This document shows, in pieces, positions 1 to 9,587 of a stretch of DNA of 33,248 nt. Source of the stretch: Nitrospinae bacterium RIFCSPLOWO2_12_FULL_45_22 (GTDB taxonomy: Bacteria > 2-12-FULL-45-22); assembly GCA_001803565.1 (NCBI GenBank), contig MHDQ01000302.1, positions 1 through 33,248 on the forward strand. Reading direction: 5' to 3'. The position numbers and the translations under genes are program-made. The first letter of the stretch is position 1, and each line of letters starts with the position of its first letter. Under the pieces are notes generated by a model. That model was not told where the DNA came from. It did no database searches and worked only from the letters and a program-made list of their open reading frames with translations.

Positions 1-769
1 AGAAGGAAGATATATTTATTGCGTAATAGGGACGGATCAAGAGAGAAACTTTGGCCTTATGGGTATTGGCGGTCGGGGGGACGAGGTATATACCCTTTGT
101 TATCAAGGTCAGGCCGCGGTCATCAGTAATTCTCCTGTCACGCAATATCCTATCTCCCGGGAGAATATCCTGGCCCATCAAAGGGTCATGGAAAGGGTAA
201 TGGGGGATTATACTGTTTTGCCGGTGAGGTTTGGGACCATTGCAGAGAGTAAAGACGGGGTTTCTGCCGAGCAGAGGATCAAAGAGAAGGTTTTACGGGG
301 AAGATATAAGGAATTAGAGGGTCTACTCCAGACAATGGAGAACAAGGTAGAGCTTGGCGTAAAGGCCTTATGGGCTGATATGAGTTTGATCTTTGGGGAA
401 ATCATTCAGGAAAACAAGGAGATTAGAATACTAAAGAAAAAGATAGAAGCCAGACCCCCTCTCCAGACCCGTGATGAGAGAATTGCCCTGGGAGAGATGG
501 TGCAATCCAGATTGGAGGCAAAAAGGGAAAAGGAGGGGAAGGCTCTCTTAACTGCCCTAAAAAAGATAGCAGCCGATTACCGGACCAATAAGCCCCTTGG
601 CGACCGGATGATAATGAATGCTGCCTTCTTAGTAAATACTGATGCCATGGAAGATTTCGATAATCAAGTAAATAAATTAGCGGCTGAAGGTCAGGAGAGA
701 ATAAAGCTTAAGTATGTCGGCCCGGTACCGCCCTGCAATTTTGTGGATTTAACCGTTACCTGGGAATAA
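1..769 (+). CDS. gvpF: Gas vesicle protein GvpF/GvpL family, 5'-partial (continues upstream of the window)
   Basis: ORF 59..769 carries GvpF/L hallmarks (EVYTLCY, TVLPVRFGTI). The in-frame translation of nt 2..58 (GRYIYCVIGTDQERNFGL) aligns with the RYIYCIVESNDRLSLGRIGIGGNEVYTI core of the paralogue at 5568..6773. The true start therefore lies off-window. Confidence 0.85.
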   Translation, partial: EGRYIYCVIGTDQERNFGLMGIGGRGDEVYTLCYQGQAAVISNSPVTQYPISRENILAHQRVMERVMGDYTVLPVRFGTIAESKDGVSAEQRIKEKVLRGRYKELEGLLQTMENKVELGVKALWADMSLIFGEIIQENKEIRILKKKIEARPPLQTRDERIALGEMVQSRLEAKREKEGKALLTALKKIAADYRTNKPLGDRMIMNAAFLVNTDAMEDFDNQVNKLAAEGQERIKLKYVGPVPPCNFVDLTVTWE

Positions 770-781
770 AAGGAGGAGAAG

Positions 782-1054
782 ATGGCAAACCAAGAAGATA
801 TGGGCTTAGGTTTCCTGGACATATTATTCCCCTTTTTCATTCCTCTAAAGGGGCTGATGTGGATTGGGGGAAAGGTTAAGGAAATGGTAGAAAGGGAAAT
901 GACTGATGAACCCAAAATTCACGAAGAGCTGCTAGAACTCCAGATGCGCCTTGAGATGGATGAGATAACGGAAGAGGAATATGAAAAAAGCGAGGGCAAA
1001 CTAATGGAGAAATTAGAAGAGATCAGGAGATATAAAGAAAAGGAAGGGGGGTGA
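782..1054 (+). CDS. gvpG: Gas vesicle protein GvpG
   Basis: 90 aa; LGFLDILFPFFIPLKGLMWI plus an acidic ELLELQMRLEMDEITEEEYE motif typical of GvpG; RBS aaaggagg 6 nt upstream. Confidence 0.85.
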   Translation: MANQEDMGLGFLDILFPFFIPLKGLMWIGGKVKEMVEREMTDEPKIHEELLELQMRLEMDEITEEEYEKSEGKLMEKLEEIRRYKEKEGG

Positions 1055-1058
1055 GAAG

Positions 1059-1280
1059 ATGGAGGCAAAGATTAGACCAGCATCAAGAACAGGACCCTTT
1101 AAATGCCTCAGATGCGGGAGTATAACCGCGAGTGGGTTAAAGTATTGCACCCAATGCGGCGAGAAGCTTACTATAGAATGTCCTGGCTGTAACACTACCT
1201 GGCGTTTTTATTCCTATTATCCTTACTGCCCAGAGTGTGGGACAAAGACCAGCCAGAGATACGCTGAGGCTGCTCGCTAG
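1059..1280 (+). CDS. Small zinc-ribbon protein (two CxxC pairs)
   Basis: 73 aa; CLRCG..CTQCG and CPGC..CPECG motifs; RBS aaggaaggggg upstream; coupled to gvpG. Confidence 0.7.
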   Translation: MEAKIRPASRTGPFKCLRCGSITASGLKYCTQCGEKLTIECPGCNTTWRFYSYYPYCPECGTKTSQRYAEAAR

Positions 1281-1406
1281 CACGAGAAATAAATAAAAAA
1301 TAAAAAAATGTGGACACGAATTTTATTCGTACTATCGAGGGAGCGGATAAATCCGTGCCCTCAATATTCTCATAAGCATAAGGGAAAATAACAAGGAGGA
1401 AAGAAG

Positions 1407-1673
1407 ATGGTTTTATCTTTAGATCAATTAATTCTACGGGCCCGGGAACAACTCAACAAAATCACCGGCTTAAAATTGTCCACTACCCTGGGAGTCACCA
1501 GGCATAATGGTACCTGGGTTGTCTCTGTGGAGTTGGTGGAAAAACATTCCATCCCTGATGGAATGGATATCCTGGCAACTTATGAGGTCAATATGGATGA
1601 AGAGGGTACCCTTGTCGATTTTAAGCGTAAAAGGCTCCGGAAACGGATAGATACCGAGGACGCAGAGGCATAG
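1407..1673 (+). CDS. gvpO: Gas vesicle protein GvpO
   Basis: 88 aa; GVTRHNGTWVVSVELVEKHSIPDGMDILATYEVNMDEEG matches the conserved GvpO core (…GxWxVxVEVVExxxxPDxxDILxxYEVxLDxxG…); strong RBS aaggagg. Confidence 0.85.
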   Translation: MVLSLDQLILRAREQLNKITGLKLSTTLGVTRHNGTWVVSVELVEKHSIPDGMDILATYEVNMDEEGTLVDFKRKRLRKRIDTEDAEA

Positions 1674-1756
1674 CTGAATGTTTGCGCTCATAGAGAATAG
1701 TTATCTGCGTGAATCTGCGTCCTAAATATAATTTAAGAGATAAAGGAACGAGACTA

Positions 1757-2680
1757 ATGCCACATCAAGGGCCAGGCTTTTTAGAAAACCAGGAGCTGCA
1801 ATTGATACTCTTCGGGGGGAAAGGCGGGAGTGGCAAGACCACCTTTGCGGCAGCCACTGCAATATATCGAGCCCAATCCAGCAAAAATAAAAAAATACTG
1901 GCCGTATCTACTGACCCGGCCCATTCCCTGGGGGATAGTTTCGGGGTCTTCATTGGGGACGAGCTTATACCCGTCAACGGTATAGAAAATCTGTGGGGGC
2001 TAGAGATAAATGCCCCGAAATTGCTGGAAGATTTCAAACAGAGACACGAGAAGGCAATCAAGAAACTGGCTGATCGTGGCACTTACTTTGACCAACAGGA
2101 TATAGCCGATTTCTTCTCCCTCTCATTACCCGGACTGGATGAAGTTATGGCCATCATAGAGATTGCCAATATCCTTAAGAATGGACAGTATGATCTGATT
2201 ATACTGGATACGGCTCCTACCGGGCATACCATTAATCTATTGGCCCTGCCCGAACAGATGGAAAAGTGGATCAAGGTCTTCGATCTGATGCAGGAAAAGC
2301 ACCGCTATATGGGGACGCATTTCACCGGTAGGAGGTATGTCAAAGATGATGCCGATGAGTTTATTGAGATGATGACCAGGGATATCGGCAGGGTGAAAAA
2401 CCTTCTTATGGATAAAAAAATAACGGAGTTTGTCCCGGTTACTATTCCAGAACCAATGAGTATATATGAGACCGAACGGCTTTTGGCGGTTTTGAAAGAT
2501 TATAAGATTTCTGTTAAAAGTATTATTGCTAACCGAGTTATTATTGATGAGGGGGTAGATTGTCCTTCCTGTCTGTCCAGAATAAGAGAAAAGGAGAAGT
2601 ATATAAGAGAGATGGAGAGAAGTTCGCTCTTTATAATCTCCTTAAAATGCCTTTATTCCCTGCCGAAGTTAGGGGGATAG
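1757..2680 (+). CDS. ArsA/GET3-family P-loop ATPase (single-domain), copy 1
   Basis: Deviant Walker A LFGGKGGSGKTT, switch region DTAPTGHT, C-terminal CPSC pair. ORF opens at GTG 1709, but the ATG at 1757 has RBS aaagga and is the likelier start. Confidence 0.85.
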   Translation: MPHQGPGFLENQELQLILFGGKGGSGKTTFAAATAIYRAQSSKNKKILAVSTDPAHSLGDSFGVFIGDELIPVNGIENLWGLEINAPKLLEDFKQRHEKAIKKLADRGTYFDQQDIADFFSLSLPGLDEVMAIIEIANILKNGQYDLIILDTAPTGHTINLLALPEQMEKWIKVFDLMQEKHRYMGTHFTGRRYVKDDADEFIEMMTRDIGRVKNLLMDKKITEFVPVTIPEPMSIYETERLLAVLKDYKISVKSIIANRVIIDEGVDCPSCLSRIREKEKYIREMERSSLFIISLKCLYSLPKLGG

Positions 2681-2730
2681 GGACCCTAAAGAAATTTATT
2701 GAGATATTGCAAGGAAATGGGGAAACATTC

Positions 2731-3756
2731 ATGAGCCCTCGGCTCACAAAGGATGATGAAAATATGTGGGATAGGAATGTACCGCATATCGATAGGCGGG
2801 GTTTTCTAACCCCGCAAAAACCATTTTCAGGAAAAGCCCCCTTAAATCGTGAATTCATCCTTTTTGGGGGCAAAGGCGGGGTAGGCAAGACTTCCCTGGC
2901 TGCCGCTACGGCCTTATGGCTAGCCAGAGAGGAGCGTAGCAAAAAAGTCCTGGCCTTCTCTACCGACCCGCCCATAGGGGATAAGATTACCCCTATAGAA
3001 GAGGTAGACAATCTTTATGCCCTGGAGATAAATGCCGCTAAATTACTGGAGGATTTTAAAGAGGAATACAGAGATGATATAAATGAAATGTTTGATAGGT
3101 TCTTGGCCGGAGGAATAGATGTCAAGTTTGATCGGGAGGTAATGACTGAGCTTATTTCCCTTGCGCCTCCTGGGTTAGATGAGATCATGGCCCTGGATAA
3201 GATTATAGATCTCAGAGATGCCCGGGAATTTGATCTGTTTATCCTGGACTCGGCTGCTACTGGACATCTACTCCGCTTCCTGGAACTGCCTGATCTGATC
3301 CGGGATTGGTTAAAAACCCTCTTCAAGATAATATTGAAATACAAGGGGATGGTACGCCTAACCAAGGTGGCTGAAAATTTGCTAAAACAGTCCAAAAATA
3401 CAAGAAAGATACAGGAAGCGCTTACAGACCCCCTCAGGAGTGAGTTTGTGGCAATAACCATCCCTGAGGCCATGGGTGTGTTGGAGATGGAAAGACTTCT
3501 ATCAGGCCTTAGTAGACTGAAGATACCCTGCCACCATATCATTATCAATATGGTCATTCCCCCAACGGATTGTAGTTTTTGCTCCTTCAAACGGAATGAA
3601 CAACAAAAGTATGTTAAGGCAATAAGAGATAACTTTGCCCGGTATCTGGTTTCCGAAATTCCCTTATTCCCCCATGAAATAAAGGAGAGAGAAAGATTGA
3701 ACGATCTTGCCGCGATGATGTATGATCCGGTCGAGGAGGTAATAAAAAGCGCCTGA
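2731..3756 (+). CDS. ArsA/GET3-family P-loop ATPase (single-domain), copy 2, with N-terminal 'GFLTPQK' module
   Basis: LFGGKGGVGKTS Walker A, DSAATGHLLRF switch, CSFCS pair. ORF opens at TTG 2560 overlapping copy 1; the ATG at 2731 with ggggaaa RBS is preferred, and the start is uncertain by about ±85 nt. Confidence 0.8.
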   Translation: MSPRLTKDDENMWDRNVPHIDRRGFLTPQKPFSGKAPLNREFILFGGKGGVGKTSLAAATALWLAREERSKKVLAFSTDPPIGDKITPIEEVDNLYALEINAAKLLEDFKEEYRDDINEMFDRFLAGGIDVKFDREVMTELISLAPPGLDEIMALDKIIDLRDAREFDLFILDSAATGHLLRFLELPDLIRDWLKTLFKIILKYKGMVRLTKVAENLLKQSKNTRKIQEALTDPLRSEFVAITIPEAMGVLEMERLLSGLSRLKIPCHHIIINMVIPPTDCSFCSFKRNEQQKYVKAIRDNFARYLVSEIPLFPHEIKERERLNDLAAMMYDPVEEVIKSA

Positions 3757-3811
3757 AGATAGAGATGTTTATCTATTCAGTGAAATGACTATTCCGATGA
3801 GGTAAGCAAAG

Positions 3812-4180
3812 ATGGTCCTAGAAGCCAGCAGAAACTCCAGCAGTACCTTAGTAGATGTAATAGATAGGATACTGGATAAGGGATTGGTGATCAATGCCGA
3901 TATAACTGTTTCCCTGGCTGGAGTAGAGTTGCTGGGTATCAAGATAAGGGCGGCTCTGGCTTCTTTCGAGACCGCAGCTAGATATGGCTTAGAGTTTCCC
4001 TCGGGGACTAATTATGAAACCTCAGCCTGGCAAGAAGCCCGGATAGGTAAAGAGAATTGTCCGCAGTGTGATAAGAGGACGCCGGTAGAGGAGCTTATTA
4101 GCACCGGCTGCCCCTGGTGTGGATGGATAAGTGCCAAGGCCAAGACCCTGGCCCAAAAAGCCGCCCCATCAATGATGTGA
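3812..4180 (+). CDS. GvpA/GvpJ/GvpM-fold gas vesicle protein fused to a C-terminal zinc ribbon
   Basis: N-terminus [39 protein letters not shown] is the GvpA/J/M signature; C-terminus has CPQC…CPWCGW. Confidence 0.8.
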
Positions 4181-4222
4181 GGCAACTTAATTACTGGTCT
4201 GAGAGGTAAAGAAGGTGTCGAA

Positions 4223-4555
4223 ATGGTTTTAGAATTCTTTTCCATCCCAGGAGCCCTTTTAAATGAAATTGATAAATATGCCTGTCAGCAGAGGGAAAGA
4301 GAGGCCAGAAATACCTACTGGATAAGGTGTCCCAATTGCGGAAAGCAGGTAGTAAAAAGGGAATTGATCAAGAAGGGGTGTTATGTATGCAACTGGCAGG
4401 GGACTGAAGATAAAATTAAACCGGCCAATCAAGAAACCAGGGATAGGCCAAATCCTTATAAGACAAATTGTCCCCGCTGCGGAGCCCGGGTGATAACCGA
4501 CCAACTACAAGAAAATGGGTGTTATCTCTGTGGATGGAAAGCTCCAAAGGATTAG
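4223..4555 (+). CDS. Double zinc-ribbon protein
   Basis: 110 aa; CPNCG…CYVCNW and CPRCG…CYLCGW, two ribbon units. Confidence 0.65.
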   Translation: MVLEFFSIPGALLNEIDKYACQQREREARNTYWIRCPNCGKQVVKRELIKKGCYVCNWQGTEDKIKPANQETRDRPNPYKTNCPRCGARVITDQLQENGCYLCGWKAPKD

Positions 4556-4558
4556 AAG

Positions 4559-4630
4559 GATAAATCCAAAGTTCAAAATCCAGATGCCAAAATATTTGAG
4601 CTTTGACATTTGGGCTTTTATTTTTAAGGA
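4559..4630 (+). promoter_or_regulatory. Conserved ~70-nt upstream element, copy A (precedes the Hsp20/gvpH-like gene)
   Basis: Near-identical to 5482..5553 (about 4 mismatches over ~72 nt); contains TTGACA at 4603..4608 and a T-rich tract. Confidence 0.7.
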
Positions 4631-4638
4631 TTAGAAGG

Positions 4639-5148
4639 ATGGATGAGATGGATAGAGAAGAAGGAGAAAAAGAGATAAAAAAATCTGAAGAAGACGAGGA
4701 TCGGGAGCCTGAAGGGATAGCCGGTAATGTGCTTAAGGGATTAGGTGATATTATTCCTGGGCTGGGTGGCTTGATCAAGGGCTTGAAGAAATCGGCGGCC
4801 TTCCAGGATAGGTTGAAAGTGATAGATGCGGAGGTTGAGGCCAGGTTAAAGGGGAAAGGATTGACTGAAAAGGAAGGAGAAATCTACCGATCAAGACCGA
4901 CGGTTGCAACCCCTAAGGAGGTTCCAGTAGAGCTCTTTGATGAAGGAGATTATTGGAGGGTAATCGCGGAATTGCCCGGGATAGAAGAAAAGGATATTAA
5001 GGTTGATCTGGAGGGTGCCAGGGTATTCATATCTGTCAATAGCTCCCAGCGTAAATATCACCGGGAAATCAACCTGGCTTGTACCCCTAAAGGCGATCTC
5101 AAAAAAGTTTATAAAAATGGGATACTAGAGATCACTATAGAAAAATAA
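4639..5148 (+). CDS. gvpH: Hsp20/alpha-crystallin-family protein (GvpH-like)
   Basis: ACD motifs WRVIAELPGIEEKDIKVDL … YKNGILEITIEK; start chosen at MDEMDREEG with RBS agaagg (ORF 4603 begins inside the repeat). Confidence 0.8.
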   Translation: MDEMDREEGEKEIKKSEEDEDREPEGIAGNVLKGLGDIIPGLGGLIKGLKKSAAFQDRLKVIDAEVEARLKGKGLTEKEGEIYRSRPTVATPKEVPVELFDEGDYWRVIAELPGIEEKDIKVDLEGARVFISVNSSQRKYHREINLACTPKGDLKKVYKNGILEITIEK

Positions 5149-5156
5149 CGAAGATT

Positions 5157-5480
5157 ATGCCTATTGATATTGATCAGGATAATTTGCGACATGGGGTCTT
5201 AGGTCTAGTTCTAGCCCTGGTGGAGATAATCAGAGATGCGTTGAGGCTCCAGGCCTTCAGACGCATGGAGGGAGGCAGCTTGACCGAGAAAGAGATTGAA
5301 CGATTAGGAGAGGCCTTGTTGGACCTGGATACCGCCATTGACCAGATCAAAGAAGAGCAAGGGATTACTGAGGCGGTTCAGGGTGTGAGAGATGGCCTGG
5401 ACAGCATTGTAGATGAAGTTATAGACCAGTTTGTTAACCCAGAACGGTGGGAAGAAAAAGCCAGAGAAAAGCGGGCTTGA
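5157..5480 (+). CDS. gvpK: Gas vesicle protein GvpK
   Basis: HGVLGLVLALVEIIRDALRLQAFRRMEGGSLTEKEIERLGEAL closely matches the conserved GvpK core. Confidence 0.9.
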   Translation: MPIDIDQDNLRHGVLGLVLALVEIIRDALRLQAFRRMEGGSLTEKEIERLGEALLDLDTAIDQIKEEQGITEAVQGVRDGLDSIVDEVIDQFVNPERWEEKAREKRA

Positions 5481-5481
5481 T

Positions 5482-5553
5482 GATAAATCCAAAGTTCAAA
5501 ATCCAAATGCCAAAATATTTGAGCTTTGACATGTGGGGTTTTTATTTTTAAAG
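5482..5553 (+). promoter_or_regulatory. Conserved ~70-nt upstream element, copy B (precedes the second gvpF/L)
   Basis: Near-identical to 4559..4630. Confidence 0.7.
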
Positions 5554-5567
5554 AAGGGATATTCAGA

Positions 5568-6773
5568 ATGGAGAGGGAAGTATCGCCGCTAAAGGTGTTA
5601 ATAGAGAGAATAATCAAAGATGAGATAGAGGATATGGCTGGGGAGATCAAGTCCCTGGTAAAGCAAACTGTCAAGAGCAGTTTTGTCTCAAAAATTAGAG
5701 AATCAGTGAGAAATGCTATATCAGAGACAATAGAAGAAATATTGCCAGAGACTGGGAAGCCCGGAATTATAACTTGCAGCAATGAAACTCAGTGGGATAA
5801 AGATTTTCCCCATCCATCCTATGAATTGGTACCCGGCGATAGGCAGGGTTTTCTAACCCCGCAAAAAGAATTTGTAACCGTTCACCCACACATTGCCCAC
5901 GATGTCATTCTGAGCGAAAGCGAAGAATCTCTTTCGCCGGAGACCCTTCGCCCCGCTCAGGGTGACAGTCCCAGTGAACGGTTACAAGAATTTAATACCG
6001 GGGATGGCAATAATAGCGGGAGATATATCTATTGTATTGTGGAGAGTAATGATCGGTTAAGCCTTGGCCGGATCGGTATAGGAGGTAATGAGGTGTATAC
6101 TATCCCCTATAAAGACCTGGCTGCCCTAGTCCACAATTGCTCCACCGAACCTTACGCTTCAGAAGATAGTGAAATAGTCAAGGGATGGGTAATGACGCAT
6201 CAAGAAGTCTTGGAAAGGACAGCTCAGAGATTTAGTACCGTGATACCTTTAGGCTTTGACACTATTATCAAAGCTGTAAACGGTCAAACCCCTGAGCAAA
6301 ACCTGATAGAGTGGCTAAAAGGAGATTATGAGAATCTCAAGGTAAAGGTAGCGAGGCTGAAAGGAAAGGAGGAGTATGGGGTACAGATCCTTTGGAACCC
6401 CAAAATTATCGGGCAAAAAATTGCCCAGATCACCCCTGAAATTAAGAAATTAGATGAGGATATAAAATCGAAGCCCAGAGGAATGGCCTATATGTATAAA
6501 CAGAAGCTAGAAGATGCCTTAAAAACTGAGCTAGAAAAGGCGGCTGATCGTTATTTTAAGGAATTTTATGAACAGATTAAGCCCTGGGCAGATGATCTGC
6601 GGGTAGAAAAGACCAAGAAGGCCGAGGAGGGCAAGCATATGCTCATGAATCTCTCCTGCCTGGTGGATAAGGAAAAATATAAAAAGTTGGGTGAAGAACT
6701 GGAGAGGATTAACAATATGGATGGTTTTTTTGTACGCTTTACCGGCCCCTGGCCACCCTATAGCTTTGTCTAG
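5568..6773 (+). CDS. gvpL: GvpF/GvpL-family protein with ~150-aa N-terminal extension carrying the 'GFLTPQK' module
   Basis: C-terminal ~250 aa paralogous to feature 1 (RYIYCIVE…EVYTIPY…). N-terminal extension has WDKDFPH…GDRQGFLTPQKEF. Start taken at MEREVSPLK with RBS aagaaggg. Confidence 0.8.
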   Translation: MEREVSPLKVLIERIIKDEIEDMAGEIKSLVKQTVKSSFVSKIRESVRNAISETIEEILPETGKPGIITCSNETQWDKDFPHPSYELVPGDRQGFLTPQKEFVTVHPHIAHDVILSESEESLSPETLRPAQGDSPSERLQEFNTGDGNNSGRYIYCIVESNDRLSLGRIGIGGNEVYTIPYKDLAALVHNCSTEPYASEDSEIVKGWVMTHQEVLERTAQRFSTVIPLGFDTIIKAVNGQTPEQNLIEWLKGDYENLKVKVARLKGKEEYGVQILWNPKIIGQKIAQITPEIKKLDEDIKSKPRGMAYMYKQKLEDALKTELEKAADRYFKEFYEQIKPWADDLRVEKTKKAEEGKHMLMNLSCLVDKEKYKKLGEELERINNMDGFFVRFTGPWPPYSFV

Positions 6774-6775
6774 AA

Positions 6776-7033
6776 ATGGAACCAACCAGAAATACCCATG
6801 CAACTTTAGTAGATTTATTGGACCGCATCCTGGATAAGGGGCTGGTGATACATGCCGATATTATCGTATCAGTGGCAGGAATACCCTTAATCGGGGTTAA
6901 TTTGCGGGCTGCCCTGGCAGGAATGGAAACGATGCTAAGATACGGTGTACTGCAGGCCTGGGATGAAGGCACCAGGGCCTGGGAACGGAGACAGAGAATG
7001 AAAGGAGAAATGGGAGTTTCTTCAGCAGTTTAG
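6776..7033 (+). CDS. GvpJ/GvpM-type small gas vesicle protein
   Basis: [47 protein letters not shown]; start 3 nt after the gvpL stop (coupled). Confidence 0.85.
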   Translation: MEPTRNTHATLVDLLDRILDKGLVIHADIIVSVAGIPLIGVNLRAALAGMETMLRYGVLQAWDEGTRAWERRQRMKGEMGVSSAV

Positions 7034-7063
7034 CCAAATTAGGCTCATAAAACCATAAAGAGA

Positions 7064-7130
7064 GGTTGTAGTGGCAGAGCTTGCTCTGCTTGGGTGCTTA
7101 TCGGGATGTCGAGCAAGCTCGACCACTACA
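7064..7130. repeat. REP-like palindromic element: two inverted copies of a 23-nt unit (TTGTAGTGG + GAGCwwGCTC hairpin) flanking a 21-nt spacer
   Basis: 7064..7086 ttgtagtggcagagcttgctctg and 7108..7130 tcgagcaagctcgaccactacaa (reverse-complement orientation). The differences between arms are compensatory within each internal hairpin. Confidence 0.65.
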
Positions 7131-7139
7131 AAAGGAAAC

Positions 7140-8984
7140 ATGGGTAGAGTAGTAGGGATTGACTTAGGGACTACTAATTCAGTAGTAGCCATTATGGAGA
7201 GGGGAAAGCCTAAGGTTATACCTAATGCTGACGGTAACCCCTTGACTCCATCAGTGGTAGCCTTTACCCCGGATTGGAGACCTCTGGTAGGTCAGTTAGC
7301 TAAGAAACAGGCAACGGTAAATCCCGAAAAAGCCCTCTTTTCTATCAATAAAAGGATGGAGAGAAGTTCCTATGGGGAGAGGAATAATCCTGCTAGTTTT
7401 AACCAGATTATTACTTCTATCAAGAGACGGATGGGCTCTAACTATATAGTAAAGATTGATAACAGGGAATATACCCCCCAGGAGATCTCCAGCATGATCT
7501 TGCAAAAAATAAAGAGGGATGCAGAAGACTATCTGGGCGAAAAAATAGGGAAGGCCGTGATTACTGTGCCTGCTTATTTTAATGATAGCCAGCGCAAGGC
7601 TACTAAAGATGCTGCTACTATTGCTGATCTGGAAGTCATCAGGATTATTAATGAACCAACCGCAGCAGCCCTGGCTTATGGCTTAGACAAAGAAGATATT
7701 CATACCATTTTGGTTTGGGACCTTGGGGGTGGTACCTTTGATGTCTCTATTTTGGAATTAGGAGATGGCTTCTTTGAGGTTAAGGCAGTAAATGGCGATA
7801 CCCACCTGGGTGGGGATGACTATGACCAGCGAATTGTTAATTATTTAGCCGATGTTTGTCAAAAAGAGCAAGATATTGACCTCCGGCAAGATAGGATTAC
7901 CCTTCAGATACTGAAAGAAGTAGCCGAAAAGGCCAAGATTGAGCTCTCCTATGCCCTAACTACCAATATAAGTTTATCTTTGATTTACCAAGATGGTCTT
8001 AAGAACCCGGATATTATCCTGAGGAGGGAAGAGTTTAATGAGCTAACCGAGGATTTAAGAGAGCGAATGATACGACCAACGCAACAGGCCCTGGTTGATG
8101 CCAGGCTTTCTCCTGAGGATATTGATAGGGTGATCCTGGTAGGTGGGGCCACCAGGATGCCAGCGATACAGGAATTGGCTAAGACGCTCCTGGGCAAAGA
8201 GCCCTATAACCATATTGATCCAGACAAGATTGTAGCGCTGGGGGCCGCTATTCAGGCCGGTATTTTAACGGGGGAAGTTAGGAAAGTGACCTTGATAGAT
8301 GTTAATCCTTTATCTTTAGGCATCGAGACTATGGGCGGAGTATTTACCAGGATCATTGAAAGAAATACACCTATTCCTACCTCTCAAAGCCGGGTCTTTA
8401 CTACTGCTCGGGACAATCAAACAGAAGTAGATATCCATGTCTTCCAAGGAGAGCGGGCGATGGTCAGACATAATATGCCCCTGGACAGGTTCCGCCTTAC
8501 CGGTATCGAACCTCAACCCCGAGGCGAAGCCCGCATCGAGGTAATTTTTGATATTGATGTCAATAGTATTGTCCAGGTGTCAGCTATAGACCTTCAGACG
8601 GATAACCAGCAAAAGATAGAGATTAACTCGTTTGGGAGCCTGCTGGAAGAAGGGATAGACCAGATGGTTGAAGAAGCCAGGATATATGCTGAGCAAGATA
8701 GGAGAGAGCGAGAAAAAATAGAGGCAAGTATCCGGGCTAATAGTATGATTTGTGCGGCTGAGCACATGATTAAAGAGGTGGAGGAAAAAATTAGTAACTC
8801 CCTCCGGGAAGGGGTAATCGAGATTGAACAAGCTATACTCCTGGTTAAAGAGGCCCTGGCCAGTAGTAATTACCAGGAAGTAAAATCCCGAACACAAGAA
8901 TTAGAAAGGCTTATTCAGGCCAGGGAGAGAGAAAGGAGGAATAAAAAAAAGGAGATAAAGGAAGAGGAGGCGGTACTAACTTGA
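7140..8984 (+). CDS. dnaK: Hsp70 chaperone DnaK (divergent, stand-alone; no grpE/dnaJ adjacent)
   Basis: [45 protein letters not shown], substrate-binding domain and helical lid present. ORF opens at GTG 7071 but the conserved N-terminus begins at ATG 7140. Confidence 0.9.
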
Positions 8985-9004
8985 TATACAGAGCGACATA
9001 ATTA

Positions 9005-9100
9005 TTTGCGCATACCAACATTGCCTGTCATTCCGGGCTTGACCCGGAATCCAGCATCTTTTCTGGATTCCGGCTTTCGCCGGAATGACGACTTATGCGT
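9005..9100. repeat. Structured palindromic element (tandem hairpins attccggg-N5-cccggaat / attccgg-N6-ccggaat with outer 10-bp inverted repeat gtcattccgg/ccggaatgac and imperfect 15-bp flanking inverted repeats)
   Basis: Read directly from 9027..9089; mutually exclusive alternative pairings are possible. Confidence 0.55.
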
Positions 9101-9232
9101 ATTTAATTTGGACGCTGTGTATAGTATAGGAATTTTCATTTTAATAATGCGGTTTTTCACTCCTCGCAACGACAGTATGTATTGAAATGTTAATTTGGCA
9201 ACGATGTACTAGAGACCCAGGAGGATAAGGCA

Positions 9233-9541
9233 ATGGATTTTCTAGGAAGGAGCAAATGGGAGACGTTAGAGGAAAAAATAGTAGATATTGTTGATGGGAA
9301 GAGACGGGTGCTGGTCATTGCTGAGATGCCCGGTGTATCCGAGGAGGAGATCAATATAGATATTGCCGGTGATGTCCTTTTGCTTCTGGCTTCCCATAAG
9401 GATAAGAAGTATTCCAATGAGATATTCCTACCAGCCAGAGTAAAAAGAGAAACTATGAAATATATCTATAAAAACGGCCTCTTAGAGATCACTATAGACA
9501 AAGAACTAGCTCGGAAACCAGGTCAATTAAATTATATTTAG
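9233..9541 (+). CDS. Hsp20-family small protein, paralogue of the GvpH-like protein
   Basis: VLVIAEMPGVSEEEINIDI … YKNGLLEITIDK, C-terminus nearly identical to 4639..5148; RBS aggagg. Confidence 0.75.
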   Translation: MDFLGRSKWETLEEKIVDIVDGKRRVLVIAEMPGVSEEEINIDIAGDVLLLLASHKDKKYSNEIFLPARVKRETMKYIYKNGLLEITIDKELARKPGQLNYI

Positions 9542-9587
9542 GACGCAGATTTCCGCAGACATTTTAGTGAGGAGTAAGCAGTGAGCC

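What the first reader, a model, noticed from the sequence alone, without database searches (positions are those of the whole stretch)
1757..3756. Tandem single-domain ArsA/GET3-like ATPases inside the Gvp cluster, a candidate chaperone/targeting factor for hydrophobic Gvp subunits
Both proteins have the ArsA/GET3 deviant Walker A (GKGGSGKTT / GKGGVGKTS), the switch II DTAPTGHT / DSAATGH motif, and a C-terminal Cys pair (CPSC / CSFCS). The Cys pair is at the position where GET3 dimers coordinate Zn. Two different paralogues in tandem suggest an obligate heterodimer, like the fused A1–A2 halves of ArsA. GET3 is a known ATP-dependent chaperone that shields and delivers very hydrophobic tail-anchored segments. 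GvpA/J/M are among the most hydrophobic, aggregation-prone proteins known. By inference, an ArsA/GET3 pair could substitute for, or complement, GvpN in delivering GvpA-family subunits to the growing vesicle. This is a hypothesis, not an established role.
Basis: inference. Interest (0 to 1): 0.75.

Follow-up and report, generated by a model that had tools for sequence, protein, structure and literature searches.

The report
Split gas-vesicle ArsA/GET3-type ATPase gene
The two "tandem" ATPase genes are the two halves of one double-domain ArsA/GET3-type ATPase gene, a conserved gas-vesicle cluster accessory first reported in 2010 with an untested role, split in this contig by one missing base.

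Summary
The motifs and the gas-vesicle (gvp) context are real.

**One gene, not two.**
- ORF1 (1757-2680) and ORF2 (2560-3756) overlap by 121 nt in different frames.
- The missing C-terminus of the first ArsA domain is encoded in ORF2's frame.
- Joining the frames at about 2613-2623 gives a 666-aa A1-A2 protein with two complete ArsA_ATPase domains.
- A contig 99.8% identical over 4.65 kb encodes the same allele intact (676 aa). All but one of the other 118 best homologues listed are fused proteins of 638-794 aa (that one aligns over only half the query).

**Two lesions unique to this contig.**
- One G is lost (GGG to GG).
- A 30-nt in-frame deletion removes the near-invariant switch-I segment 'AHALSDSFGC' of A2.
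- I cannot tell whether these are assembly errors or real decay.

**Family placement.** It is GET3/TRC40-like, not the arsenite pump. It passes TIGR00345 and fails the ArsA equivalog. It lacks the metalloid cysteines, and no ars genes are nearby. Both halves keep the Get3 Zn CxxC.

**Context.** Of 79 genome loci holding relatives, 71 lie in gvp clusters. The link was published by Castillo & Saier in 2010. A Get3-like chaperone role is plausible but untested. GvpN usually co-occurs.

The parts
1757..2616 (+). 5' part of the gene: A1 (first ArsA/Get3 domain) up to the frameshift, read in ORF1's frame. Contains the P-loop GGKGGSGKTT (1814-1843), switch I STDPAHS, switch II DTAPTGHT (2207-2230) and CPSC (2561-2572).
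   Evidence: Pfam ArsA_ATPase 229.9 bits, profile positions 2-273 of 305. Sequence read. Annotated in NCBI as hypothetical protein OGW12720.1.
2613..2623 (+). Frameshift site. One G is missing (GGG to GG) relative to the same allele in L083. After it, ORF1 runs into 19 aberrant codons and a stop at 2678-2680.
   Evidence: DNA alignments with L001 and L083. In L083 the text is GAGATGGGAGAGAAG, in the window GAGATGGAGAGAAG.
2623..2715 (+). C-terminal strand and helix of A1 (FALYNLLKMPLFPAEVRGIGTLKKFIEILQ), encoded in ORF2's frame.
   Evidence: Aligns to the C-terminus of Get3 homologues 2woo, 3zq6, 3ug6 and 3ibg. Joining restores Pfam profile positions 2-304.
2716..2865 (+). Inter-domain linker (low-confidence region in the model). 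Two alleles exist in the population. The window's allele contains a 37-nt repeat (2790-2826) shared with gvpL (5837-5873).
   Evidence: pLDDT is below 50 for residues 323-342 of the P0001 model.
2866..3756 (+). A2 (second ArsA/Get3 domain). Contains the P-loop GGKGGVGKTS (2866-2895), switch II DSAATGH (3247-3267) and CSFC (3571-3582). The stop codon is at 3754-3756.
   Evidence: Pfam ArsA_ATPase 216.8 bits, profile positions 2-305. NCBI OGW12721.1 (369 aa, starting at ATG 2647).
2965..2975 (+). Site of a 30-nt in-frame deletion. It removes AHALSDSFGC, the switch-I 'DPAHxLSDxF' motif of A2. It is flanked by a CCCAT microhomology.
   Evidence: The motif is near-invariant in 114 homologues. DPAH is present in 49 of 51 A2 halves from genome loci.
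1..9541 (+). The surrounding gas-vesicle cluster: GvpF (start cut; ORF 59-769), GvpG 782-1054, double zinc ribbon 1059-1280, GvpO 1407-1673, ArsA, GvpJ-like with Zn ribbon 3812-4180, Zn-ribbon protein 4223-4555, Hsp20-like 4603-5148, GvpK 5157-5480, GvpL 5526-6773, GvpM-like 6776-7033, DnaK 7071-8984, Hsp20 9233-9541.
   Evidence: Pfam and NCBIfam scans. The same gene order is seen in L001, L083, L084, L085 and L002.

Best explanation
**What it is.** Positions 1757-3756 hold one gene for a two-domain (A1-A2, pseudo-dimeric) P-loop ATPase of the TRC40/GET3/ArsA family. This family is a conserved accessory component of many bacterial gas-vesicle clusters.

**State in this contig.** The gene is broken by loss of one G at about 2613-2616. 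It also lacks 30 nt encoding the switch-I motif of A2. As assembled, the copy is probably non-functional. Whether that reflects a real strain variant or an assembly error is open.

**Most likely mechanism of the intact protein (inferred, not shown).**
- Like Get3 and Chlamydomonas ArsA1, ATP binding at the A1/A2 interface closes the two halves.
- The halves would hinge on a Zn held by the two CxxC pairs.
- The two helical subdomains would then form a binding site that holds an aggregation-prone gas-vesicle protein.
- Candidate clients are the GvpA/J/M family and GvpG, whose gene sits directly upstream in most clusters.
- Hydrolysis would reopen the clamp and release the client at the growing vesicle.
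- It would work alongside the Hsp20, DnaK, GvpF-DnaJ and Cdc48-like AAA proteins encoded in the same clusters.

**My probabilities.**
- Single fused gene: about 0.95.
- Dedicated role in gas-vesicle biogenesis: about 0.85.
- Get3-like ATP-driven holdase or delivery mechanism: about 0.35-0.4.
For: **Architecture**
- ORFs overlap in different frames, and A1's C-terminus is in ORF2's frame.
- Intact 676-aa and 666-aa versions occur on contigs that are 99-99.8% identical.
- All but one of the other 118 best homologues listed are fused, 638-794 aa.
- The split products are unique to this contig.

**Family**
- TIGR00345 scores 455.7 bits against a cut-off of 135.
- The best PDB sequence hit is Chlamydomonas ArsA1, followed by archaeal and fungal Get3. 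E. coli ArsA is the weakest of the 26 PDB sequences that matched at E <= 1e-10.
- The AF2 model of the intact orthologue has pLDDT 82.3 and pTM 0.80. It matches closed two-domain ArsA structures over its full length and Get3 per domain.
- Both P-loops, both switch II motifs and both CxxC pairs are invariant in 114 homologues.

**Gas-vesicle role**
- 71 of 79 genome loci with relatives carry Gvp genes within 10 kb, across many phyla.
- GvpG is directly upstream in 37 of 58 two-domain loci. Hsp20 is directly upstream in 17 of 21 single-domain loci.
- The association was published in PMC2963123.

**Chaperone reading**
- The cluster also holds DnaK and two Hsp20 genes.
- Relatives add a GvpF-DnaJ fusion and a Cdc48-like AAA ATPase.
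- The helical subdomain has the same length and hydrophobic fraction as in Get3 references.
Against: - There is no experimental or interaction evidence for any client.
- The helical subdomain is poor in Met (1-5% against 10-12% in three Get3 references).
- In A1 it carries an invariant polar motif (KHRY...Y.KDD.D.F). This looks more like a specific partner site than a generic groove for transmembrane helices.
- No cluster protein is obviously tail-anchored. I judged this by eye from the translations. No transmembrane prediction was run.
- From my own knowledge: the well-studied clusters that form gas vesicles heterologously (B. megaterium, Anabaena flos-aquae, Serratia, Halobacterium) have no ArsA. 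The protein is therefore not universally required.
- In this contig the gene is damaged, so nothing can be said about activity in this organism.
Confidence: 0.6

Rival explanations
1. Two separate single-domain ArsA/GET3 genes whose products form an obligate heterodimer.
For: - Two ORFs are present, and NCBI annotates them as two proteins.
- Single-domain ArsA genes do occur in other gvp clusters, for example L067 and the Chlorobiaceae and Bacteroidota loci.
Against: - ORF1 lacks the last roughly 32 profile positions, which are encoded in ORF2's frame.
- One extra G in a 99.8%-identical contig fuses the ORFs.
- The split forms are unique to this contig.
- Apart from the window's own ORF2, none of the 119 best homologues listed is a single-domain or split protein.
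- Where single-domain forms exist, there is one gene, not a tandem pair.
Confidence: 0.04
2. A real pseudogene. This strain has lost the ATPase, and perhaps gas-vesicle formation, through two independent lesions.
For: - Two lesions lie within 360 nt of one gene, on a contig that otherwise differs from L083 by only 8 SNPs in 4.65 kb.
- The 30-nt deletion is flanked by a 5-nt direct repeat (CCCAT), as expected for slipped-strand deletion.
Against: - The frameshift sits exactly where the two population alleles begin to diverge. That is a place where mixed-strain assemblies make errors.
- The other cluster genes compared are intact: 99-100% protein identity to L001.
- There is no read-level evidence.
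Confidence: 0.4
3. An arsenite-efflux ArsA (catalytic subunit of an ArsAB pump) that merely lies next to gvp genes.
For: - Two-domain A1-A2 architecture.
- The top full-length Foldseek hits are ArsA pumps.
- Some source databases name relatives 'arsenite-transporting ATPase'.
Against: - The TIGR04291 equivalog scores 198.8 bits against a cut-off of 650.
- Identity to ArsA structures is only 20-23%.
- A1 has no Cys other than CPSC. A2 has only C592 and CSFC, so the As(III)-binding Cys triad is absent.
- No arsB, acr3, arsD or arsR was found among the window ORFs scanned.
- 71 of 79 related loci are gvp clusters.
Confidence: 0.02
4. A nucleotide-dependent switch of the MinD/ParA kind. It would position, space or regulate gas vesicles or their nucleation complex rather than chaperone subunits.
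For: - ArsA/Get3 belongs to the same superfamily of dimer-forming P-loop NTPases as MinD and ParA. Weak hits to CbiA, ParA and AAA_31 were seen.
- The conserved polar motif in the A1 helical subdomain suggests a specific partner.
- The gene is tightly adjacent to GvpF and GvpG.
Against: - The match is specifically to ArsA/Get3, including the helical subdomain and the CxxC.
- No membrane-targeting helix or DNA-binding feature was noticed. No prediction was run.
- The fused pseudo-dimer cannot use monomer-dimer cycling, which is how MinD and ParA work.
Confidence: 0.15

Closest known systems
Gas-vesicle-cluster ArsA homologues (Clusters 4 and 6 of Castillo & Saier 2010, PMC2963123)
   Same: - Two-domain protein of about 640 aa.
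- Encoded inside gvp operons with gvpF/L, G, J, K, M, N, O and hsp20.
- No ars genes and no arsR.
- Proposed to energise a step in gas-vesicle biogenesis.
   Different: - The window's copy is split by a frameshift and lacks 10 residues of A2.
- That paper did not propose a Get3-type chaperone mechanism or note the CxxC pairs, in the passages I read.
- The lineage here (Nitrospinae MAG) was not in that study.
Chlamydomonas reinhardtii ArsA1 (PDB 5zme/5zmf)
   Same: - Best sequence match among solved structures (E 4e-64).
- Fused two-domain pseudo-dimer of Get3-like halves.
   Different: - About 27% identity.
- ArsA1 has no CxxC at the aligned position in either half.
- From my own knowledge, not checked here: ArsA1 is a chloroplast tail-anchored-protein targeting factor. 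That is a different cellular context from a gvp operon.
Get3/TRC40 (yeast, S. pombe) and archaeal Get3 homologues (3zq6, 3ug6)
   Same: - Deviant Walker A, switch I and switch II.
- CxxC at the identical aligned position.
- A helical subdomain of similar length.
- 30-36% identity per domain.
   Different: - Get3 is a homodimer of single-domain subunits. Here the two diverged halves are fused.
- The helical subdomain is Met-poor.
- No Get1/2-type receptor or tail-anchored client is evident.
ArsA arsenite-pump ATPase (E. coli R773, 1f48; L. ferriphilum, 9nbo)
   Same: A1-A2 fused architecture and overall fold (TM-score normalised to the query 0.63-0.67).
   Different: - 20-23% identity.
- No metalloid-binding cysteines.
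- Has CxxC pairs at the position where Get3 binds Zn.
- No ars operon.
- Fails the NCBIfam equivalog cut-off.
Get3d / NosAFP (Get3 with a C-terminal alpha-crystallin domain; PMC10248533)
   Same: - Get3-fold ATPase physically coupled to an Hsp20/alpha-crystallin module.
- Here the coupling is by gene adjacency: Hsp20 lies directly upstream of single-domain gvp ArsA in 17 of 21 loci.
   Different: - Get3d lacks the CxxC and the A-loop.
- The window protein scores 95.8 bits against a cut-off of 325 for NF050088.
- No fused alpha-crystallin domain.

Membership tests
TRC40/GET3/ArsA family (TIGR00345, Pfam PF02374) | Profile score above the curated cut-off | tested here: met
   - Reconstructed protein: TIGR00345 455.7 bits (cut-off 135) and PF02374 457.2 bits with two stretches.
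- Each raw ORF alone: 229.9 and 216.8 bits.
TRC40/GET3/ArsA family (TIGR00345, Pfam PF02374) | Deviant Walker A GKGGxGK[ST] and switch II DTAPTGH in each domain | tested here: met
   - A1: GKGGSGKT and DTAPTGHT.
- A2: GKGGVGKT and the variant DSAATGH.
- The core residues are invariant in 114 homologues.
TRC40/GET3/ArsA family (TIGR00345, Pfam PF02374) | Switch I 'TDPAHxLSD' in each domain | tested here: not met
   - Present in A1 (STDPAHSLGD).
- In the window's A2 only STDP remains, because 10 residues are deleted.
- The intact alleles P0122 and P0001 have STDPAHALSDSF.
GET3/TRC40 tail-anchored-protein targeting factors | CxxC that coordinates Zn at the dimer interface | tested here: met
   - CPSC aligns with CPQC, CEFC, CDFC and CEQC of four Get3 structures.
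- Both CxxC pairs are invariant in 114 homologues.
- Zn binding itself was not tested.
GET3/TRC40 tail-anchored-protein targeting factors | Hydrophobic, Met-rich client-binding helical subdomain (Get3 motif / TRC40 insert) | tested here: inconclusive
   - Region lengths are 63 aa (A1) and 55 aa (A2), against 69 aa in Get3 references.
- Hydrophobic fraction is 0.44-0.49 against 0.40.
- Met is 2.5-5% against 9.6%.
- A1 carries an invariant polar motif.
GET3/TRC40 tail-anchored-protein targeting factors | Homodimer of single-domain subunits | tested here: not met
   Fused A1-A2 in all intact relatives, as in Chlamydomonas ArsA1.
GET3/TRC40 tail-anchored-protein targeting factors | Binds tail-anchored clients and hands them to a membrane receptor | not testable with these tools
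   This needs biochemistry. No tail-anchored protein or receptor homologue was noticed in the cluster.
Arsenical pump-driving ArsA (TIGR04291) | Equivalog score above cut-off | tested here: not met
   - TIGR04291: 198.8 bits against 650.
- NF041417 (haloarchaeal ArsA): 272 bits against 800.
Arsenical pump-driving ArsA (TIGR04291) | Metalloid-binding cysteine triad (C113, C172 and C422 of E. coli ArsA; residue numbers from my own knowledge) | tested here: not met
   - A1 has no Cys before C269.
- A2 has only C592 and C606/C609.
- This rests on the absence of Cys in the relevant regions. No direct alignment with E. coli ArsA was made.
Arsenical pump-driving ArsA (TIGR04291) | Genomic link to arsB/acr3, arsD and arsR | tested here: not met
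   None was found among the window ORFs scanned. 71 of 79 related loci are gvp clusters.
gvp-cluster two-domain ArsA homologues (Castillo & Saier 2010) | Two ArsA domains, about 600-700 aa, inside a gvp operon with gvpF/L, G, J, K and hsp20, and no ars genes | tested here: met
   - The reconstructed product is 666 aa (676 aa without the deletion).
- The gene order GvpF-GvpG-DZR-GvpO-ArsA-GvpJ is shared with L001, L002, L083, L084 and L085.

The most novel reading that the evidence does not exclude
The gvp-linked ArsA/Get3 ATPase would be the ATP-driven core of a dedicated protein-handling module that has been overlooked. The module would also include Hsp20, DnaK, a GvpF-DnaJ fusion and a Cdc48-like AAA ATPase. 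It would keep the extremely hydrophobic GvpA/J/M (or GvpG) subunits soluble and feed them into the growing shell. This would be a Get3-type clamp re-used for a protein-shelled organelle instead of a lipid membrane. In the roughly one third of clusters with no gvpN nearby, it could take over part of GvpN's job.
Probability: 0.3. Interest if true: 0.65.

Novelty: new member of a known kind. Interest (0 to 1): 0.35.

Why it matters
**For annotation.**
- The two 'hypothetical proteins' of this metagenome-assembled genome (OGW12720.1 and OGW12721.1) are fragments of one gene.
- Similar split calls may hide the family in other genomes.

**For gas-vesicle biology.**
- The family is widespread. In the survey, 71 of 79 sampled genome loci lie in gvp clusters, across Chloroflexota, Acidobacteriota, Desulfobacterota, Planctomycetota, Bacteroidota, Chlorobiaceae, cyanobacteria and some archaea.
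- No paper in the searched library links it to Get3-type chaperoning.
- The only functional statement found is the 2010 proposal that it 'energises a biogenic step'.

**If it is an assembly chaperone.** It could matter for expressing gas-vesicle clusters from such lineages in other hosts, for example as acoustic reporter genes. It would also extend the Get3 mechanism to a non-membrane target.

**This window adds little.** The association is already published, and the local copy is damaged.

Tried and rejected
- **Programmed -1 frameshifting at the junction.** Rejected. There is no X XXY YYZ slippery heptamer at GAGAUGGAGAGAAGU, and the same allele is in frame in L083.
- **ORF2 as an independent gene starting at TTG 2560, ATG 2647 or ATG 2731.** Rejected. 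Its first roughly 50 codons encode A1's C-terminus.
- **Membership of Get3d/NosAFP, or of BagA/BagB.** Scores are far below the cut-offs (95.8 against 325, 93.8 against 521, and 58.9 against 400).
- **Literature search for experimental work.** Searches with 'gas vesicle' plus Get3, TRC40, arsenical pump or anion-transporting ATPase found nothing beyond Castillo & Saier 2010. Two other hits (the Nodularia and Chloroploca genome papers) mention ArsA in unrelated contexts.
- **Rough neighbour-joining tree of domain halves.**
  - A1 halves and A2 halves mostly fall into separate groups.
  - Single-domain gvp ArsAs group near the window-type A1 halves.
  - Get3 references fall among them.
  - No bootstrap was run and E. 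coli ArsA was not included, so I use the tree only qualitatively.
- **Composition of the helical subdomain as a test of a Get3-like groove.** Inconclusive.
- **Docking or complex prediction with Gvp proteins.** Not possible with the tools available.
Full report
**1. What is at 1757-3756**

The ORF list shows two ORFs. ORF1 runs 1709/1757-2680 and ORF2 runs 2560-3756. They overlap by 121 nt and lie in different frames.

- GGKGGSGKTT at 1814-1843
- DTAPTGHT at 2207-2230
- CPSC at 2561-2572
- GGKGGVGKTS at 2866-2895
- DSAATGH at 3247-3267
- CSFC at 3571-3582

Both ORFs hit Pfam ArsA_ATPase strongly, at 229.9 and 216.8 bits.

The match of ORF1 stops at profile position 273 of 305. The match of ORF2 begins only at its residue 98.

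The first roughly 50 codons of ORF2 read FALYNLLKMPLFPAEVRGIGTLKKFIEILQ. This is the missing C-terminal strand and helix of the first domain. It aligns residue for residue with the C-termini of S. pombe Get3, A. fumigatus Get3 and the two archaeal Get3 homologues.

Joining the frames at about 2623 gives a 666-aa protein. Its first domain now covers profile positions 2-304. It scores 455.7 bits on TIGR00345, the TRC40/GET3/ArsA family model (cut-off 135). The two halves align with each other over their full length.

**2. The split is peculiar to this contig**

A search of 5.8 billion protein clusters with the joined protein gave 120 listed hits. One of them is the window's own ORF2: P0013, 369 aa, NCBI OGW12721.1, from 'Nitrospinae bacterium RIFCSPLOWO2_12_FULL_45_22'. 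All but one of the other 118 best homologues are uninterrupted two-domain proteins of 638-794 aa; that one (P0063) aligns over only half the query.

An exact look-up shows that ORF1 (OGW12720.1, 307 aa) and ORF2 occur on this contig only.

Contig L083 comes from a different sample in ENA.
- It is 99.8% identical to the window over 4.65 kb, with 8 SNPs.
- It carries the same inter-domain linker allele.
- It encodes an intact 676-aa protein, P0122.

The window differs from L083 in two ways.
- It has lost one G (GGG to GG at about 2613-2616).
- It has a 30-nt in-frame deletion at 2970/2971, flanked by a CCCAT microhomology.

A second allele has a different linker and is 666 aa long (P0001 and four cluster-mates). 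It is intact on five further contigs, including L085, which by its record name comes from the same study series.

The 30-nt deletion removes AHALSDSFGC, the switch-I 'DPAHxLSDxF' motif of the second domain.
- This segment is near-invariant in 114 homologues.
- DPAH is present in 49 of 51 A2 halves from genome loci.

The frameshift lies exactly where the two population alleles start to diverge. That makes a mixed-strain assembly error plausible. The microhomology-flanked deletion looks more like a real mutation. I cannot decide between these without the reads.

A programmed frameshift is unlikely. There is no slippery heptamer, and the same allele is in frame elsewhere.

**3. Which family**

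By sequence, the closest solved structures are as follows:

| Structure | E-value |
|---|---|
| Chlamydomonas ArsA1 (two-domain) | 4e-64 |
| Archaeal Get3 homologues 3zq6, 3ug6 | about 1e-51 to 1e-54 |
| Fungal Get3 | about 1e-48 to 1e-52 |
| E. coli ArsA (weakest of the 26 that matched at E <= 1e-10) | 1.6e-32 |

NCBIfam's equivalog for the arsenical pump ATPase is failed, at 198.8 bits against a cut-off of 650.

A1 contains no cysteine other than CPSC. A2 has only C592 and CSFC. The arsenite-binding cysteine triad of ArsA therefore cannot be present.

No ars gene was found among the window ORFs scanned.

CPSC aligns exactly with the Zn-binding CxxC of four Get3 structures. Both CxxC pairs are invariant in 114 homologues. 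Chlamydomonas ArsA1 has no CxxC at the aligned position in either half.

An AlphaFold2 model of the intact orthologue P0001 is confident, with pLDDT 82.3 and pTM 0.80. Only the linker is disordered.
- Over its full length it matches closed two-domain ArsA structures (TM-score normalised to the query about 0.66, 20-23% identity) and ArsA1 (27%).
- Per domain it matches Get3 at 30-36% identity.

The protein is therefore a Get3-like, Zn-CxxC-bearing pseudo-dimer. It is not an arsenite pump subunit.

**4. Link to gas vesicles**

The window's cluster contains, in order:
- GvpF
- GvpG
- a double-zinc-ribbon protein
- GvpO
- ArsA
- a GvpJ-like protein with a C-terminal Zn ribbon
- a Zn-ribbon protein
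- an Hsp20-like protein
- GvpK
- GvpL
- a GvpM-like protein
- DnaK
- Hsp20

The same order is found in L001, L083, L084 and L085. It is also found in a protein relative at 58% identity on a 237-kb contig, L002.

A scan of one genome per species returned 79 loci with relatives. Searching their six-frame ORFs with the window's Gvp proteins found Gvp genes within 10 kb in 71 of the 79.
- Of the eight exceptions, three are contigs of 5.2 kb or shorter.
- The other five are five of the more distant matches (26-39% identity).

The hosts span Chloroflexota (including a Dehalococcoides MAG), Desulfobacterota, Acidobacteriota, Verrucomicrobiota, Planctomycetota, Bacteroidota, Chlorobiaceae, cyanobacteria, Gemmatimonadota, Nitrospinota and a few archaea.

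Gene adjacency:
- In two-domain loci, GvpG is the immediate upstream neighbour in 37 of 58.
- About 20 loci carry a single-domain version of about 310 aa. Hsp20 is immediately upstream in 17 of 21 of these. In the one locus I read through (L067), a Cdc48-like double-AAA ATPase and a GvpF-DnaJ fusion follow.

This association is not new. Castillo & Saier (2010, PMC2963123) reported two-domain ArsA homologues of about 637 aa inside gvp operons with hsp20. They found them in cyanobacteria, Chlorobi, Bacteroidetes, a delta-proteobacterium and an acidobacterium. [quoted passage not shown]

I found no later experimental work. No paper in the searchable library mentions both Get3 and gas vesicles.

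**5. How it most likely works**

Shown:
- The fold and the family.
- Conservation of both nucleotide sites and both CxxC pairs.
- Tight and phylogenetically broad embedding in gvp clusters.
- Co-location with other chaperone genes.

Inferred from the established Get3 cycle (features summarised in PMC10248533):
- ATP closes the two halves around a Zn hinge.
- The two helical subdomains then form a client site.
- Hydrolysis opens the clamp and releases the client.

Candidate clients are GvpA/J/M or GvpG. That choice is a guess, based on their hydrophobicity and on gene adjacency.

Points against a generic Get3-like groove:
- The helical subdomain has a Get3-like length and hydrophobic fraction but is Met-poor.
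- A1 carries an invariant polar motif.
- No cluster protein looks tail-anchored by eye. No transmembrane prediction was run.

On GvpN:
- Of 27 loci with at least 8 kb on both sides, 17 have gvpN nearby.
- The other 10 have none, even when searched with a GvpN profile built from 38 sequences. These are Acidobacteriota, Labilithrix, Rokubacteria and a 'Deltaproteobacteria' MAG.
- ArsA therefore normally accompanies GvpN. Substitution in some lineages is not excluded, because gvpN could lie elsewhere in those genomes.

**6. Verdict**

The motifs and the context are right. The gene architecture is wrong.
The protein is Get3-like rather than a pump, and the two halves do work together. The chaperone role remains a reasonable, unpublished and untested hypothesis.
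- The gvp link itself has been in the literature since 2010.
- The local copy is damaged in this assembly.
- I rate this a new member of a known kind, of modest interest.

Noticed in passing
window 1704-1736 and 9527-9559: A 33-nt inverted repeat, 94% complementary. It brackets the 7.8-kb block from just upstream of the ArsA start to the end of the last Hsp20 gene. It could mark an invertible or mobile segment, or a shared regulatory site.
   Followed up: no
window 4559-4625 and 5482-5548: A 67-nt direct repeat, 93% identical. It lies in the intergenic regions just upstream of the Hsp20-like gene and of gvpL, and it contains TTGACA. It is a candidate duplicated promoter or 5' leader. The TTG starts listed for these ORFs probably over-extend them.
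   Followed up: no
window 2790-2826 and 5837-5873: A 37-nt repeat, 92% identical, shared by the ArsA linker and the N-terminal extension of GvpL. It encodes DRxGFLTPQKxF. The population has two linker alleles: the window/L083 type and the L001 type. The window-type allele may have arisen by gene conversion with gvpL.
   Followed up: partly
window 7071-8984 and 9233-9541; L084 3-1370 and 1571-2638; L002 3537-5720 and 5992-7041; L067 5412-7586 and 7706-8860: These gvp clusters are unusually rich in chaperone genes: a full DnaK, two Hsp20 genes, a GvpL/F-DnaJ fusion and a Cdc48-like double-AAA ATPase. In relatives GvpN is present as well.
   Followed up: partly
window 7066-7086 and 7111-7131: A 21-nt hairpin stem, 90% complementary, with a 24-nt loop. 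It lies immediately upstream of the likely DnaK start (ATG at about 7140). It may be a regulatory RNA structure. It does not match the CIRCE consensus as I recall it.
   Followed up: no
window 1059-1280, 3812-4180, 4223-4555: The cluster has zinc-ribbon additions: a 73-aa double-zinc-ribbon protein, a GvpJ-like protein with a C-terminal CPQC...CPWC ribbon, and a 110-aa protein with two ribbons (DUF7560). They are conserved in L001, L083 and L002.
   Followed up: no
L051, L054, L057-L060, L062, L065, L067-L071, L074, L076, L080, L082: A second cluster type occurs in Bacteroidota, Chlorobiaceae, Pirellulales, Spirochaetales and another Nitrospinota MAG. It has a single-domain ArsA of about 310 aa with a CxxC, in the fixed order GvpN - GvpJ - Hsp20 - ArsA. 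In L067, the one locus read through, a Cdc48-like AAA follows; the others show a similar gap of about 2 kb before the next Gvp gene.
   Followed up: partly
L016, L019, L020, L022, L040, L043, L045, L055, L064, L075: Ten fully flanked gvp clusters with a two-domain ArsA have no GvpN within 8-10 kb on either side, even when searched with a GvpN profile HMM. The hosts are Acidobacteriota, Labilithrix, Rokubacteria and a 'Deltaproteobacteria' MAG.
   Followed up: partly
L002 20541-22034: A second two-domain ArsA gene lies 8.5 kb downstream of the first on the same 237-kb contig, after a run of small unannotated ORFs.
   Followed up: no
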